Origin: a virus
Reading direction: 5' to 3' (one strand)
Length of the DNA stretch: 64,000 bases
IMG/VR virus record: IMGVR_UViG_3300028146_000008
Location: 1-64,000 of that record
Position 1 is the stretch's first letter, and each line of letters begins with the position of its first letter. Made by a program: the position numbers and the translations under genes. Shown one piece after another: positions 29,299 through 55,969 of this stretch. Below the pieces are notes generated by a model that was not told the DNA's origin, made no database searches, and saw only the letters and a program-made list of their open reading frames with translations.

Positions 29299-29502
29299 GT
29301 GAACAAAGTGGCCGTAAGAACTAGCATCATTGAAGCACTAGCTCGGGACATGGCATGGGACGGAAGTGAATCAGGAACCGAAGAGTTCCTTGTAAAATTG
29401 CTAAGAGCTAGTGAAGACGTGTACCGTCAAATGAAACAGTCACACAAAGAAGGTTTGTGCTACGACTGTATTAACGCCCTCTCCGATAAACTAAATGCAT
29501 AA
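29299..29502 (+). CDS. Small hypothetical protein upstream of the HNH gene
   Basis: TTGACA (29260) and TGGTATACT (29281-29289) promoter, GTG 29299; stop overlaps the HNH start. Confidence 0.45.
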   Translation: MNKVAVRTSIIEALARDMAWDGSESGTEEFLVKLLRASEDVYRQMKQSHKEGLCYDCINALSDKLNA

Positions 29503-30118
29503 GAAATTACAACTGGATGGCCTTGTATCGGGTCGGCTTACTGTAGTCCAACGGGCGTGTGTGATCGCCAAGAACACCTTTTGGATATGCCAGTGCTCGT
29601 GCGATGGTTTGTACTCCATCATCCGAGGAAAGAGCATCACGGGCAAGAGAATACAAAGTTGTGGTTGCATACGCCGAGAGATGAATAAAAAGAAAGCAGC
29701 GCGACTTGCTATCTTAAACACCTTGGCACCCGGCGAAGCTGCGTTGAACCAGCTATACGCTTCTTATGAGTGGCACGCGGTGATGGATAGAAGTCTTACG
29801 TTCAACCTAACTGTTGATGAGTTCAGGGCGCTGACAAAAGGAAATTGTTTCTATTGCGGGGTTGAACCAAAACAAGTCTCGCGGAACGTTAGCTGCAAAG
29901 GTTCTTACACTTACAACGGAATAGATCGGAAAGATAGCTCTTTGGGCTACAGTCCTGAAAACTGCGTCTCTTGCTGCGGGTCTTGCAACAAAGCTAAAGG
30001 AAAGAAATCTGTTGAAGATTTTCTGGTCATGTGTAGGAAAGTTTCAGAAAAAGCCATGTCAGGGGCGGCCCTAGAAACCGCCCCCTCGATGGGTTGTTTA
30101 AACAATAACGTTAGCTAA
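29495..30118 (+). CDS. Free-standing HNH-type homing endonuclease
   Basis: GRLTV..WICQCSC..SCGC N-terminal domain; CFYCG...NGIDRKDSSLGYSPENCVSCCGSCNKAK. Confidence 0.85.
   Translation: MHKKLQLDGLVSGRLTVVQRACVIAKNTFWICQCSCDGLYSIIRGKSITGKRIQSCGCIRREMNKKKAARLAILNTLAPGEAALNQLYASYEWHAVMDRSLTFNLTVDEFRALTKGNCFYCGVEPKQVSRNVSCKGSYTYNGIDRKDSSLGYSPENCVSCCGSCNKAKGKKSVEDFLVMCRKVSEKAMSGAALETAPSMGCLNNNVS
30062..30084 (-). terminator. GC-rich hairpin downstream of the MCP stop (possible terminator or stabiliser)
   Basis: GGGGCGG...CCGCCCC inverted repeat about 26 nt after the MCP stop; no clear U-tract. Confidence 0.35.
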
Positions 30119-31988
30119 TTGCCGACGTAGCGTCGATGTATCGAAGCCTCATCGTAGTGTCGGGAGGGAGGCTCGCCGTGTAGTGTACACGATACGAGGT
30201 CCAGCCCGGAATTAGTCCGGATGGGTCCGCCACGCTCAGAGGAGCATTTTGGACAATGTTACATTCGCCTGCTGTTAACTTGTTCTAAGAAAGAACAATG
30301 CTAAATCATTTCTGTTTAGCTCATACAGTTTTTATTCCTGTATGTTCGGACTATTGCATCGCCTTGCGGCGTCTTCTCGCTTAGTCTCTCACGCTGCGAT
30401 TTCTCGCTTGCGCCTCGTTGCCATTTCAGGGTTCGAGTCAATCAGAGAAGATTTTAGGAACACCGAGTTTTAATGTTCCGCCAGTTACCGTCTTCGATTG
30501 CATTGTCACCACGTCCGCCTAGGCGAATCGCTATGACTCCGTCTTTACCGAAGATGTAGGTACGGTACGCAACCACCGAAGCCGCCGAACCCTGATACGC
30601 CGTTGTGAGCGTAACCAAGTTCGACTGGAAGAACGCGACACCAGATGCTGGGAACTCCAGCGTGTCCGCGAGGTCAACCGAGACCAAATCATCCATGCGC
30701 TGGAGTCCAGGCACGGTGTGCTTCAGTACGTCGATTGCTGAGTTGTTGCTGGAATCGTTCAAGAGGTCGCCAACGGCGAACGGGTGAATGACGCCTGCGA
30801 AAAGTGCTTCCGCTTCGTTGAAGGGCTGCACTGCGCGGCCAGCCAGAGACTGGACCTGAGCGCGAATGTTGGCGAGAGCCAACGAAGTACCACCAGTGAT
30901 CTTGACCGACACGGAGCTGTCAACGCTGGAAGCGCCGTCAGCAACCGCACGGGTGATCGCGGACAGAGACTGTCCAAGGCGATACGAAAGTTCGCGACCG
31001 ACGTTTTCAACAACCGGGTCGATTGCGGTAGCGAGGGAAAGGCTGGAGAAGTTCGCGTAGTCCGCGTACTCACCTATCGTGGCAGTCGTAGTTCCGACTG
31101 ACGCGCTGATGCCCGTGGGCACCGTGCCTTCGGACACTTGGGCGGTGTTCGCGCCAAATGTGTTATTAGTTGTGTTTAGGGTTTAAAGCGAGGCTTCCTG
31201 TGTCACCACAGGATCACTCTTACGGTCACCCGTAAGCTCGGACTCTATCTTCTCTTCGGTTTCCCGAAGGTCTTGCGTATTAGTCTCTACGGAGTTATCT
31301 TGTCGATTCAGTAGGCGAATTTTATTGGCCAGTTCTTGGCGTTTCTGAGGACTACCATAAGGTAGCCGCAAAAACTCTAACGCAAGAATGGCTTGTTCTC
31401 TTTTCATTAGCAGGTATGGAACAATTGCGAGTAGAAAATTCTCTCGGTTCTTCTTGCCTGCGGGCATCCACATATACTGGGTACGCCCCGGTTTTCCGCC
31501 GTATCCGATTAGGGATCGAACGTAAAACCGCCCCCCGACATTTTTAACCAACCACTTCATCAGGAAGAGAGATGTATTGTAAATCGCTACTTGGAGTTGA
31601 AAGTCTCCTTGCGCTCTTTTGTTAGCGCAAATAGTTCCTTCTCCATCGACTATCCCGGCCAGATACGACCATAAATGTTTTTCCATTTTAGATATTTCCT
31701 CGGTATTGTCTGATAATGATTGTATCAGAGATCCACCGATATAGCAAGATTTTTAATTCATGCATAACTGTAGGTCTACATGAATAGTTCCAACTGATTA
31801 CCGGAATTGAGAGGGAGTTCCCGACGTTCTGCACAACGAACGAAAGGAGTCTGCGCTTTCAAATTCTCAATAAAACGCTTCTTCTTTCAGTTGGTTTGAT
31901 CTACGACAAGCGTTGTTTAATCGTAGTAAATTACTCGCGATTGCGGTAAGTTGGAAGTAGTGTTTGAAGCTGGATTAAATCCGGCCAT
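30111..31988 (-). CDS. Major capsid protein (N4 gp56-like family), four exons: 31988-31920, 31880-31778, 31166-30473, 30267-30111; 340 aa spliced
   Basis: Joined exons (69+103+694+157=1023 nt) give one open frame: MAGFNPASNTTSNLPQSRVIYYD|KRFIENLK...SGNQLELFMY|NTFGANTAQVSEGTVP...GVIHPF...YRTYIFGKDG...NWRNI|ECNIVQ...ADPSGLIPGWTSY...SAIS*. Lies directly after the scaffold gene. Confidence 0.9.
30268..30472 (-). ncRNA. Group I intron 3 of the MCP gene (205 nt, ORF-less)
   Basis: P1 GGAACAU/GUGUUCC with U.G; P10 UCG/CGA; P3 UCUUCUC/GAGAAGA; P7 GAGACUA/UAGUCC; P8 CGCCGCAAGGCG; P9 hairpins; terminal G at 30268. Confidence 0.9.
31167..31777 (-). ncRNA. Group I intron 2 of the MCP gene (611 nt) carrying a LAGLIDADG ORF
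   Basis: P1 UUCAUGU/GCAUGAA with U.G; P10 GUUAU/AUAAC; P3 UCUUGC/GCAAGA; P7 GAGACU/AGUCC preceded by AAGAUAG; P9 hairpins CUUACGG-GUGA-CCGUAAG and UCCUGUG-GUGA-CACAGGA. Confidence 0.88.
31183..31686 (-). CDS. Intron-encoded single-motif LAGLIDADG homing endonuclease
   Basis: YLAGIVDGEGTI motif, IVPYLLMKREQA; ORF lies within intron 2. Confidence 0.9.
   Translation of the reverse strand: MEKHLWSYLAGIVDGEGTICANKRAQGDFQLQVAIYNTSLFLMKWLVKNVGGRFYVRSLIGYGGKPGRTQYMWMPAGKKNRENFLLAIVPYLLMKREQAILALEFLRLPYGSPQKRQELANKIRLLNRQDNSVETNTQDLRETEEKIESELTGDRKSDPVVTQEASL
31881..31919 (-). other. 39-nt core-less group I-like mini-intron (intron 1 of the MCP gene)
   Basis: UAAACAACGCUUGUCGUAGAUCAAACCAACUGAAAGAAG: two in-frame stops, a 14-nt guide complementary to the spliced junction, terminal G. 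Confidence 0.75.
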
Positions 31989-32031: not shown

Positions 32032-32952
32032 CTATTTTTTCTTCGCGTAGAGTTCTTCAACTGCTTTGCGGAAGTCAGGGTCTTTCAACTTCGCTTCGTA
32101 CTCTGCCGCGCTCATTTTGTTGATATCTCTGTGAGTAATCCCAGCGGTCTTGGGCGCGGTCGCTCCAGGTACTGCGCTGGAATTACCTCGTCCCAATCCG
32201 GATGACGATTGCTGTGGTCGCACTTCTGTAGGCTCGCTCGGGATCGCCGGGGCCGAATTTGTCGCCGGTTCCGAGATCGTCGGAACCGTAGCAGGTGCGG
32301 CGGCAGCGGGTGCTGCCGGTGATACTGGTGTTTCCGCTTTTGGAGCCTGTAGCACTAACAAATCGTCAGCGGCTAAGTCTTCAAAAGCTAATCTCAAGTT
32401 TTGTGCGGTCCAGCGCCGATTGTTTTTCTCCATCCATTTCTGGATGTGATCTCGGTTGGACTCGCATTCCACATACTGTGGGGTGGCGGCGATGAATTCT
32501 CTAACCGCCTGTTGGATCTTTCCTACACGCTTATCAATATCAATGTCCCGGAGTTTTCCGCGAACTACGTCTAGCGGGGCTCCGAGCTGGGCTTCGAGAA
32601 GGAGTTTTTGTCCTTCTGCCACCGTAGCGGGGTCTCTCAAGAGTTTTTCTATCTTGATCCGCTCATCGGCGGTAAGTGGCCGCTCCTCGTAGGAATAAAG
32701 CGGTTCTTCTTCCGGTTCGGGTTCCAGCATTTCGCCGAGCTTGGCTGCCCTGCGGGTTTCGTAAAGCTTCACTGCCGCGTTTCGGTGGGCAGCATCTTTC
32801 TTTTCCAGCAAGTCTTCGAGTGTGTCAGCTTCAAAGTACTGCAGAGGGCCGACTGGGAGGCCGTTGTTGTCGGTCAACTGAGTCTGGATTACAAACTTCT
32901 TTTTATCTTCATTCCAATACTTGGATTTAGGCGTAGCTACTGCTTCGGACAT
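32032..32952 (-). CDS. Capsid scaffolding protein
   Basis: Acidic helical protein with an Ala/Pro linker and C-terminal INKMSAAEYEAKLKDPDFRK helix; immediately upstream of the MCP. Confidence 0.7.
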   Translation of the reverse strand: MSEAVATPKSKYWNEDKKKFVIQTQLTDNNGLPVGPLQYFEADTLEDLLEKKDAAHRNAAVKLYETRRAAKLGEMLEPEPEEEPLYSYEERPLTADERIKIEKLLRDPATVAEGQKLLLEAQLGAPLDVVRGKLRDIDIDKRVGKIQQAVREFIAATPQYVECESNRDHIQKWMEKNNRRWTAQNLRLAFEDLAADDLLVLQAPKAETPVSPAAPAAAAPATVPTISEPATNSAPAIPSEPTEVRPQQSSSGLGRGNSSAVPGATAPKTAGITHRDINKMSAAEYEAKLKDPDFRKAVEELYAKKK

Positions 32953-46248: not shown

Positions 46249-46323
46249 TGGGGCCCAGTGATGGATTTGAACCACCGACCCGCTGTTTACAAAACAGCCG
46301 CTCTGCCTCTGAGCTAACCGGGC
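46249..46323 (-). tRNA. tRNA-Thr(TGT)
   Basis: Cloverleaf GCCCGGT/ACTGGGC, anticodon loop TT-TGT-AA, GTTCAAATC, encoded CCA. Confidence 0.92.
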
Positions 46324-46329
46324 AAAACT

Positions 46330-46403
46330 TGGCGGGGTCGAAGGGAATCAAACCCTCGTTTTTCGAGCGACAGTCGAGCGTCTTGTCACTAGACGACGAC
46401 CCC
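46330..46403 (-). tRNA. tRNA-Asp(GTC)
   Basis: GGGGTCG/CGACCCC acceptor, loop CT-GTC-GC, encoded CCA; T-loop TTTGATT is slightly atypical. Confidence 0.85.
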
Positions 46404-46409
46404 TAAATT

Positions 46410-46483
46410 TGGAGCGAGACGTGAGAATCGAACTCACTTCTTCAGTTTGGAAGACTGAGGCACTGCCAATATGCCAGTCCCGC
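46410..46483 (-). tRNA. tRNA-Gly(TCC)
   Basis: GCGGGAC/GTCTCGC acceptor, loop CT-TCC-AA, GTTCGATTC, encoded CCA. Confidence 0.92.
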
Positions 46484-55884: not shown

Positions 55885-55969
55885 CTGGGGCAGCAGGAGT
55901 CGAACCTGCAATGTCCTTTCGGACTGTCGCCTTAACGGGGCGATGCTGTGCCAGTTGAGCCACACCCCA
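55885..55969 (-). tRNA. Atypical tRNA-Asn(GTT) with a long variable arm
   Basis: TGGGGTG/TGCCCCA+G; anticodon stem TCGCC/GGCGA with loop CC-GTT-AA; extra arm GTCC-GAAA-GGAC; T-arm GCAGG-TTCGACT-CCTGC; no encoded CCA. Confidence 0.75.

What the first reader, a model, noticed from the sequence alone, without database searches (positions are those of the whole stretch)
30111..31988. Major capsid gene split into four exons by three group I-type insertions
Seen: ORF calling recovers only a 227-aa fragment, but manual splicing gives a complete 340-aa capsid protein. Established: classical phage group I introns lie mostly in DNA-metabolism genes. Inference: three splicing events on the most highly expressed late mRNA could gate capsid timing. 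The set (endonuclease-bearing, ORF-less, core-less) looks like three stages of intron reduction within one gene.
Basis: partly seen in the sequence, partly recalled or inferred. Interest (0 to 1): 0.7.

Follow-up and report, generated by a model that had tools for sequence, protein, structure and literature searches.

The report
Capsid gene with three introns
A soil phage's major capsid gene is cut into four pieces by two complete self-splicing-type (group I) introns and a 39-base remnant that keeps only the intron's exon-aligning guide, and relatives suggest such remnants may borrow the ribozyme of the next intron.

Summary
Observation confirmed. On the minus strand, 31988-30111, four coding pieces join into a 1023-nt frame. 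It encodes 340 aa, 331/340 identical and gapless to uninterrupted capsid genes of close relatives whose DNA is only about 80% identical.

The protein is an HK97-fold capsid; the best structural match is phage N4.

- **Intron C** (205 nt, no ORF) is a group I intron. It has P1 with U.G, a terminal G and a covariation-supported core including the P7 pseudoknot.
- **Intron B** (611 nt) has a group I core of a second, related family and an I-CreI-type LAGLIDADG gene. Its last base is A, not the canonical G.
- **Insertion A** (39 nt, two in-frame stops) has no catalytic core. It keeps 14 contiguous bases complementary to the ligated exon junction (P1 plus P10, U.G at the 5' splice site) and a terminal G. 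Its 5' part aligns with full-length family-1 introns at the same site in relatives.

Such 33-98-nt guide-only minis recur at about 10 sites in this capsid family. Each lies 26-123 nt upstream of a full-length intron, and none stands alone. This supports, but does not prove, splicing by a neighbouring ribozyme.

Rfam's group I model fails. The capsid-timing idea has no evidence.

The parts
31920..31988 (-). Exon 1 of the major capsid gene (codons 1-23, ATG at 31988)
   Evidence: Colinear with the N-terminus of Tunturi_3 gp6 and of the intron-less alleles. 8 synonymous and 1 non-synonymous codon differences to L007.
31881..31919 (-). Insertion A: 39-nt core-less mini-intron (guide-only group I remnant). 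In-frame stops at 31919-31917 and 31889-31887. P1: 31926-31920 pairs with 31907-31901, with U.G at the splice site. P10: 31914-31908 pairs with 31880-31874. The last base is G.
   Evidence: 14 contiguous pairs centred on the ligated junction; 0 of 20000 shuffles reach this. Its 5' 30 nt aligns with the 5' ends of full-length family-1 introns at the same site in L057, L079 and L197. No P3-P9 core; nhmmer finds no core here.
31778..31880 (-). Exon 2 (103 nt)
   Evidence: 23 synonymous and 0 non-synonymous codon differences to L007.
31167..31777 (-). Intron B: 611-nt group I intron of family 2. P1: 31785-31778 pairs with 31763-31756 (U.G). P10: 31768-31764 pairs with 31166-31162. The core (P3-P9.1) overlaps the 3' part of the ORF. 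The last base is A.
   Evidence: P1; P10 read by eye from the junction sequences. Composite alignment of 7 family-2 introns: 45 pairs, 91.9% paired, 27 with compensatory change. RF00028 match at 31219-31433 of 20.2 bits, E 3e-4, below the cut-off.
31183..31686 (-). Intron-encoded homing endonuclease gene, 167 aa, one LAGLIDADG motif, I-CreI family
   Evidence: phmmer against PDB: I-CreI chains at E about 2e-5, an engineered I-CreI derivative at 3.9e-14. PHROG 5046 at E 1.3e-15. No Pfam hit at E <= 0.1.
30473..31166 (-). Exon 3 (694 nt; holds the 227-aa ORF fragment)
   Evidence: PHROG 1357 major head protein.
30268..30472 (-). Intron C: 205-nt ORF-less group I intron of family 1. P1: 30479-30473 pairs with 30463-30457 (U.G). 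P10: 30466-30464 pairs with 30267-30265. The last base is G.
   Evidence: Alignment A2 of 8 family-1 introns: 46 pairs including the P7 pseudoknot, 95.9% paired, 28 pairs with compensatory change, 0/500 shuffles, slid controls 32-42% paired. It is the only family-1 core in the 94-kb genome.
30111..30267 (-). Exon 4 (154 nt plus stop codon 30113-30111)
   Evidence: 76% identical to the C-terminus of Tunturi_3 gp6..

Best explanation
**Shown**
- The gene at 31988-30111(-) is the phage's only major capsid gene. It encodes an HK97-fold, N4-like protein of 340 aa.
- Three insertions derived from group I introns interrupt it.
- C is a complete, ORF-less group I ribozyme.
- B is a complete group I ribozyme of a second, related family. 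It carries an I-CreI-type LAGLIDADG homing endonuclease gene, so it is presumably mobile by homing.
- A is an internal-deletion derivative of a family-1 intron. It has lost the whole catalytic core. It keeps the internal guide sequence, which pairs with the last 7 nt of exon 1 (P1, U.G at the splice site) and the first 7 nt of exon 2 (P10), and it keeps a terminal G.

**Inferred**
- B and C excise themselves by the usual two transesterifications.
- A cannot do so. It is removed at the RNA level by the same chemistry, with its P1 helix and terminal G docked into the catalytic core of another intron.
- That core is most likely intron B, which starts 103 nt downstream on the same transcript. A would thus be a non-autonomous 'guide-only' mini-intron sharing a neighbour's ribozyme.
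For: - **Colinearity and selection on all exons:**
- **Capsid identity:** PHROG 1357 at E 4e-17 for the intron-less allele. AF2 model with pLDDT 89.5. Foldseek top hits are the N4 capsid at E about 1e-12.
- **Group I fold of C and B:**
- **Endonuclease:**
- **A as a guide-only remnant:**
- **Minis recur and are maintained:**
  - Minis of 33-98 nt occur at about 10 sites of this capsid family.
  - Those whose guide was measured have 11-17 contiguous guide pairs centred on the junction and a terminal G; shuffle p <= 0.007 each.
  - Further in-frame minis were found by extra length and stop codons.
  - Exon and guide covary: L023 versus L059, and window A versus L040.
  - L023 and L059 share the same mini although their capsid genes differ at 138 synonymous and 27 non-synonymous codons.
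- **Dependence on a neighbour:**
  - Every mini is followed 26-123 nt downstream by a full-length intron.
  - Only 4 of 29 full-length introns have such a downstream neighbour (Fisher p = 4e-6).
  - No solo mini was seen in about 190 capsid loci screened.
- **No protein route in the contig:** no RtcB or RNA-ligase gene was found.
Against: - No RNA data exist; splicing of none of the three is shown.
- Rfam RF00028 does not reach its threshold for any of them.
- B lacks the canonical terminal G although its P7 G-binding pair is unchanged. Its own splicing, and hence its role as helper, may be unusual or impaired.
- The helper would belong to another family (family 2) than the remnant (family 1).
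- Mini A itself was seen in no other viral contig, so this copy could be recent.
- The record is a metagenome contig (CheckV 85%), not a cultured phage.
- Neighbourhood of minis and full introns could partly reflect clustering of insertion sites at the gene's two ends.
Confidence: 0.55

Rival explanations
1. A is spliced by group I chemistry, but by free, excised intron RNAs acting in trans (C, B or both), not specifically by the adjacent intron. On this reading the neighbourhood rule is an evolutionary by-product.
For: The core of C belongs to the same family as the ancestor of A. Every gene with a mini checked in the first locus set also holds a family-1 intron. Established knowledge: group I cores can act on P1 duplexes supplied in trans in vitro.
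Against: It does not explain why all minis have a full-length intron within 26-123 nt downstream, and never only upstream or far away.
Confidence: 0.15
2. A makes this allele defective. The insertion stays in the mRNA, translation stops at the UAA after codon 23, and the contig represents a dead or very recent variant, or a capsid protein started downstream.
For: Two in-frame stops. No catalytic core. This exact mini is unique in IMG/VR. The source is a metagenome contig.
Against: Exons 1 and 2 show 31 synonymous and 1 non-synonymous codon differences to relatives. Minis of the same build occur in many independent contigs and persist across deep synonymous divergence with compensatory guide changes. 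There is no second capsid gene in the genome. I saw no in-frame ATG and no convincing ribosome site after A.
Confidence: 0.12
3. A is a minimal self-splicing element on its own or with a protein cofactor, as claimed for the 56-81-nt degenerate group I introns of fungal SSU rDNA.
For: It has the same retained elements, P1 and P10 (PMC3160393). That paper reports in vitro splicing of a 67-nt intron.
Against: In 39 nt, after P1, P10 and the guide, only 20 unstructured nt remain. There is no P7 or G-binding helix. The fold is not more stable than shuffles (z = 0.06). Self-sufficiency would not predict the strict neighbourhood to a full intron.
Confidence: 0.08
4. A is skipped by the ribosome (programmed translational bypass, as in T4 gene 60).
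For: A stop codon directly follows the last sense codon (GAU UAA). The gap length of 39 nt is in the range of known bypass gaps. A stem can form at the take-off site.
Against: There is no matching landing codon: the only GAU in the gap is followed in frame by UGA, and the codon before the resumed frame is AAG. Other minis split codons in phases 1 and 2 and lack an immediate stop. The U at -1, the terminal G and the P1/P10 guide are not features of bypass.
Confidence: 0.05

Closest known systems
Group I introns in phage structural genes (mycobacteriophage LittleE capsid gene, lactococcal phage Tuc2009; PMC3706429). From my own knowledge: multi-intron phage genes such as Staphylococcus phage Twort orf142, which has three introns.
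   Same: Group I-type introns, some with homing endonuclease genes, interrupt a highly expressed late gene. The exon ends in U and the intron in G (C here). Intron-less alleles exist in close relatives.
   Different: There are three insertions from two ribozyme families in one capsid gene. One has no core and one ends in A. The capsid family as a whole has at least 16 insertion sites and up to five insertions per gene (L238).
Degenerate small group I introns (56-81 nt) of fungal SSU rDNA: Phialophora, Arthonia, Porpidia (PMC3160393)
   Same: Tiny derivatives of group I introns that keep P1 and P10 but lack most of the core. They sit in genes under strong selection, so they are presumed to be removed.
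   Different: Those are in nuclear rRNA genes, are said to keep a P7 and to self-splice, and are not reported to depend on a neighbour. Here they are 33-98 nt, lie in a phage protein-coding gene where the reading frame must be restored exactly, have no P7, and always lie just upstream of a complete intron.
Group III and other degenerate group II introns of organelles (my own knowledge)
   Same: They show the same logic: streamlined introns that lost catalytic domains and are thought to rely on factors supplied in trans.
   Different: The ribozyme class and chemistry differ. No sequence or structural relation exists.
T4 gene 60 translational bypass (50-nt gap)
   Same: A short, stop-containing gap in an essential phage gene in a homing-endonuclease-rich context.
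   Different: No matched take-off and landing codons. Group I splice-site signatures are present instead.
I-CreI family LAGLIDADG homing endonucleases
   Same: The ORF in B has 167 aa and a single motif, with full-length similarity to I-CreI, I-MsoI and I-CvuI. It is located inside a group I intron.
   Different: No Pfam model reaches E 0.1. The ORF's 3' third is co-linear with the ribozyme core P7-P9.1. Target site and activity are untested.

Membership tests
Group I intron (intron C) | P1 helix with U.G wobble at the 5' splice site, formed with an internal guide sequence | tested here: met
   7 bp, 30479-30473 with 30463-30457, U.G terminal
Group I intron (intron C) | Terminal G (omega-G) before the 3' exon | tested here: met
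   G at 30268. The junction restores the same residues as the intron-less alleles.
Group I intron (intron C) | Conserved core P3-P4-P5-P6 and P7-P3'-P8 with the P3/P7 pseudoknot and a bulged P7 holding the G-binding G-C pair | tested here: met
   46 pairs, 95.9% paired, 28 compensatory, 0/500 shuffles. The first pair of P7 covaries (G-C to A-U) next to a bulge.
Group I intron (intron C) | Match to the curated Rfam model RF00028 | tested here: not met
   No match at E <= 10, even on 231 nt alone
Group I intron (intron C) | Self-splicing with guanosine cofactor | not testable with these tools
   Needs in vitro transcription and a splicing assay
Group I intron (intron B) | P1 with U.G, and P10, on one contiguous guide | tested here: met
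   8-bp P1. The 5-bp P10, contiguous on the guide and giving 13 pairs with the ligated junction, was read by eye from the junction sequences.
Group I intron (intron B) | Core helices with covariation | tested here: met
   45 pairs, 91.9% paired, 27 compensatory in 7 family-2 introns. P3 covaries across the ORF insertion.
Group I intron (intron B) | Terminal G | tested here: not met
   The last base, 31167, is A under either possible junction. The same holds in the family-2 introns at site q31/32 of L021, L048 and L054. Their P7 sequence is the same as in members that end in G.
Group I intron (intron B) | Match to Rfam RF00028 | tested here: inconclusive
   20.2 bits at 31219-31433(-), E 3e-4 for this genome, gathering score 50. 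Not listed by cmscan.
Group I intron (insertion A) | P1 (U.G), P10 and terminal G | tested here: met
   7 + 7 contiguous pairs; G at 31881; shuffle p < 5e-5
Group I intron (insertion A) | Catalytic core P3-P9 with a G-binding site | tested here: not met
   Only 39 nt. No profile match. Alignment to full-length introns shows that everything after the 5' strand of P3 is deleted. A is therefore not filed as an autonomous group I intron.
HK97-fold major capsid protein, N4 gp56-like | Family profile match and HK97 fold | tested here: met
   Tested on the intron-less L007 protein, 97% identical to the spliced product. PHROG 1357 at E 4e-17. AF2 pLDDT 89.5. Foldseek top hits are N4 capsid 9lbz and 9e99 at E about 1e-12, probability 1.0. 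The gene follows portal and scaffold-like genes.
LAGLIDADG homing endonuclease | LAGLIDADG motif and fold-level similarity to I-CreI | tested here: met
   Motif near the N-terminus. I-CreI at E 2e-5 over residues 3-151. Pfam gave no hit.
Programmed translational bypass (T4 gene 60 type) | Matched take-off and landing codons flanking the gap | tested here: not met
   Take-off would be GAU. The codon before the resumed frame is AAG. The internal GAU leads to UGA.

The most novel reading that the evidence does not exclude
Guide-only mini-introns are a class of non-autonomous group I introns. They have lost their ribozyme and survive because the catalytic core of the next intron downstream on the same transcript splices them. 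One ribozyme would then serve two tandem sets of splice sites. A subset of family-2 introns, B included, would also splice with a terminal A instead of G.
Probability: 0.45. Interest if true: 0.9.

Novelty: new variant of a known kind. Interest (0 to 1): 0.78.

Why it matters
Group I introns are defined as self-sufficient ribozymes. The accepted life cycle runs from invasion, through loss of the endonuclease, to precise loss of the intron.

Here a phage capsid gene family shows a further, repeatedly reached state. The ribozyme is deleted, yet the exon-aligning guide and terminal G are kept and co-evolve with the exons. This happens only where a complete intron follows within about 120 nt.

If the neighbour's core does the splicing, this would be the first natural ribozyme sharing among group I introns. 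It would be an RNA-level analogue of non-autonomous transposons.

The idea can be tested directly with a few in vitro transcripts.

The finding also matters for annotation. In this phage group, gene callers will report fragments or a 'broken' capsid gene, and Rfam does not flag these introns.

Tried and rejected
- **Rfam cmscan** found no group I hit on the whole window, on 3 kb, or on intron C alone. A direct RF00028 search gave only a sub-threshold match in B.
- **Megablast** of the locus against GenBank phages found nothing.
- **Distant blastn** of intron C found only two unannotated phage stretches.
- **First AF2 run** on a shallow alignment of 23 sequences failed (pLDDT 28). It worked after a representative-library search supplied diverse homologues.
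- **PDB sequence searches** for the capsid gave only a weak N-terminal hit.
- **Exact 15-mer of mini A in IMG/VR** gave 45 chance matches, none extending beyond the 15-mer.
- **Spliced E1-E2 junction 26-mer** was absent from metagenome contigs.
- **Thermodynamic folding** of E1-A-E2 is no better than shuffles.
- **Alternative 3' splice sites for B:** only one candidate ending in G, 12 nt downstream, is in frame. It would remove four conserved residues whose codons differ from those of relative L010 only synonymously. It also lacks P10 support. I rejected it.
- **Altered G-binding site** as an explanation of the terminal A: the P7 strands are the same as in members that end in G.
- **Literature searches** for natural non-G termini or non-autonomous group I introns found no precedent in the held library.
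Full report
**1. The observation**

The window belongs to a 94,368-nt IMG/VR viral contig. On the minus strand, a portal gene (35577-33451) and a scaffold-like gene (32952-32032) are followed by the region in question. ORF calling returns only a 227-aa fragment (31137-30454). It also returns a 167-aa ORF with a LAGLIDADG motif (31686-31183).

The nearest named relative is Tunturiibacter phage Tunturi_3, a 97.6-kb podovirus of Acidobacteriota (PMC11924767). Its uninterrupted 343-aa major head protein aligns colinearly with four segments of the window.

Eighty related IMG/VR loci were fetched. Most carry uninterrupted genes, including the closest relatives.

DNA alignment to those alleles fixes three insertions. 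Applying the group I splice-site rule gives the exact parts listed in the report. The joined exons give 1023 nt and 340 aa. The product is 331/340 identical and gapless to the 340-aa ORF of L007 and L008.

Codon differences are overwhelmingly synonymous in each exon.

**2. What the protein is**

The intron-less allele matches PHROG 1357 'major head protein' at E 4e-17, across the first two junction positions. An AF2 model built on 49 diverse homologues has pLDDT 89.5. Foldseek ranks the phage N4 capsid protein first (E about 1e-12), followed by other HK97-fold capsids.

**3. Intron C**

Insertions of 200-230 nt at several sites of the capsid family are clearly homologous to C.

RNAalifold on eight of them predicts P3, P4, P5, P6/6a, P8, P9 and P9.1. 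I added the P7 pseudoknot by hand. Of the 46 pairs, 95.9% of cells pair and 28 pairs show compensatory change. No shuffle out of 500 reaches this. Sliding the partners by one to three columns drops pairing to 32-42%.

P7 has the classical bulge next to an invariant G-C pair, and its outer pair covaries. P1 (7 bp, U.G at the splice site), a short P10 and a terminal G are present.

This is a group I ribozyme by architecture. However, Rfam RF00028 does not detect it. I did not determine the subgroup.

**4. Intron B**

B belongs to a second family, which carries LAGLIDADG genes.

I made a composite alignment of seven members with the ORF replaced by a linker. It gives 45 pairs, 91.9% paired, 27 of them with compensatory change. 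These include P3, which spans the ORF insertion. The ORF begins in the P6 loop and reads through P7-P9.1.

RF00028 run directly on the genome gives one sub-threshold match inside B (20.2 bits, E 3e-4). The ORF is an I-CreI-family enzyme.

An 8-bp P1 and a 5-bp P10 read by eye lie contiguously on the guide. They fix the junction at 31778|31166.

The oddity is that the intron's last base is then A. The only in-frame alternative ending in G would delete four conserved residues. The codons of those residues differ from those of relative L010 only synonymously.

Three family-2 introns at another site (L021, L048, L054) also end in A. Their P7 sequence is the same as in members that end in G. I cannot explain this, and it lowers confidence that B splices canonically.

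**5. Insertion A**

A is 39 nt, in frame, with stops at its first and eleventh codons. Fourteen contiguous internal bases are complementary to the ligated exon junction. Seven pair with the end of exon 1, with U.G exactly at the splice site. Seven pair with the start of exon 2. The last base is G. No shuffle out of 20,000 reaches this.

Its first 30 nt comprise the P1 loop, the guide, J1/3 and the 5' strand of P3. They align with the 5' ends of full-length family-1 introns that carry an HNH gene at the identical site in L057, L079 and L197. Everything from P3 onward is missing.

A is therefore a core-deleted group I remnant. Its P10 strand matches this lineage's own exon-2 codons.

**6. The wider pattern**

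The capsid family has at least 16 insertion sites.

- **Recurrence.** Besides full-length introns there are many minis of 33-98 nt, at about ten sites.
- **Guide.** Those measured have 11-17 contiguous guide pairs centred on the junction and a terminal G. L010 has a 16-nt guide with two mismatches (read by eye; the contiguous count was not significant, p = 0.17). The guides of the in-frame minis in L053, L264 and L276 were read by eye or not measured.
- **Covariation.** Guide and exon covary between L023 and L059, and between window A and L040.
- **Persistence.** L023 and L059 share the same mini although their capsid genes differ at 138 synonymous and 27 non-synonymous codons. The minis are thus compatible with a functional gene over long divergence or repeated transfer.
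- **Neighbour rule.** Every mini is followed by a short exon of 26-123 nt and then a full-length intron of either family. Only 4 of 29 full-length introns have such a neighbour (Fisher p = 4e-6; 4e-5 with seven site-lineages).
- **No solo minis.** A screen of about 190 capsid loci for extra length or in-frame stops found none.

**7. Mechanism**

Shown:
- the anatomy of the locus;
- the selection on all four exons;
- the neighbourhood rule.

Inferred: A is removed by group I chemistry in a borrowed active site, most likely that of B, which starts 103 nt downstream. Established knowledge makes this plausible: P1 docking and terminal-G binding are largely independent of sequence, and group I cores accept P1 duplexes supplied in trans in vitro.

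Rivals and my weights:
- trans action of free excised introns, 0.15;
- a defective allele, 0.12;
- minimal self-splicing, as claimed for fungal rDNA mini-introns (PMC3160393), 0.08;
- ribosomal bypass, 0.05 (no matched codons; other minis split codons).

The contig encodes no RtcB or RNA ligase.

**8. Comparison and novelty**

Introns in phage capsid genes are known (PMC3706429). From my own knowledge, three introns in one phage gene are also known (Twort). Tiny degenerate group I introns are known in fungal rDNA (PMC3160393).

New here:
- guide-only remnants in a protein-coding phage gene;
- their recurrence, and their strict position just upstream of a complete intron;
- introns that end in A.

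The 'three stages' reading is right as a typology, but B and C are different families.

My analysis reached the same readings from the tools and adds the comparative evidence.

Noticed in passing
window 29495-30118 (+): Free-standing HNH / endonuclease VII-like gene (207 aa; PHROG 1035 at E 3e-16, Pfam HNH weak). It is convergent with the capsid gene and overlaps its last 8 nt including the stop codon. It may be a further homing element at the edge of the intron-rich gene.
   Followed up: partly
L021:1694-2895, L048:999-2008, L054 around 1240-2230: Family-2 introns at capsid site q31/32 carry double-motif LAGLIDADG ORFs of about 310 aa. The coding sequence runs through the ribozyme's P7 5' strand and P3' in mid-ORF. 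All three end in A instead of G. A 33-nt mini at the same site in L053 ends in G.
   Followed up: partly
L053:2759-2961: A 203-nt ORF-less intron whose 5' half (P3-P6) looks like family 2 and whose 3' half (P7-P9) looks like family 1. This suggests recombination between the two intron families.
   Followed up: no
L238:934-3370: A related capsid gene carries five insertions: one 46-nt mini and four full-length introns. It is the most fragmented allele seen. The family as a whole has at least 16 distinct insertion sites, clustered at residues 20-93 and 289-331.
   Followed up: partly
L005:3783-3980: The closest relative of the window (99% identity in exon 3) lacks A, B and C. It has a 198-nt family-1 intron, partly 86% identical to C, at a different site (residue about 331). 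The same ribozyme family therefore sits at different sites in near-identical genes.
   Followed up: partly
window 46252-46483 and 55885-55969 (-): Four tRNA genes: a cluster of three and a single one (Rfam gathering hits).
   Followed up: no
window 32257-32324 (+): Sub-threshold Rfam match to CcsR1 (27.6 bits versus 65.3), antisense within the scaffold-like gene. Probably chance.
   Followed up: no
MW202674.1 16877-16997 and OR420741.1 35073-35184: Stretches about 75% identical to the core of intron C in two unrelated phage records (a Caudoviricetes sp. and Roseobacter phage CRP-118). They are not annotated as introns, so this ribozyme family is more widespread.
   Followed up: no
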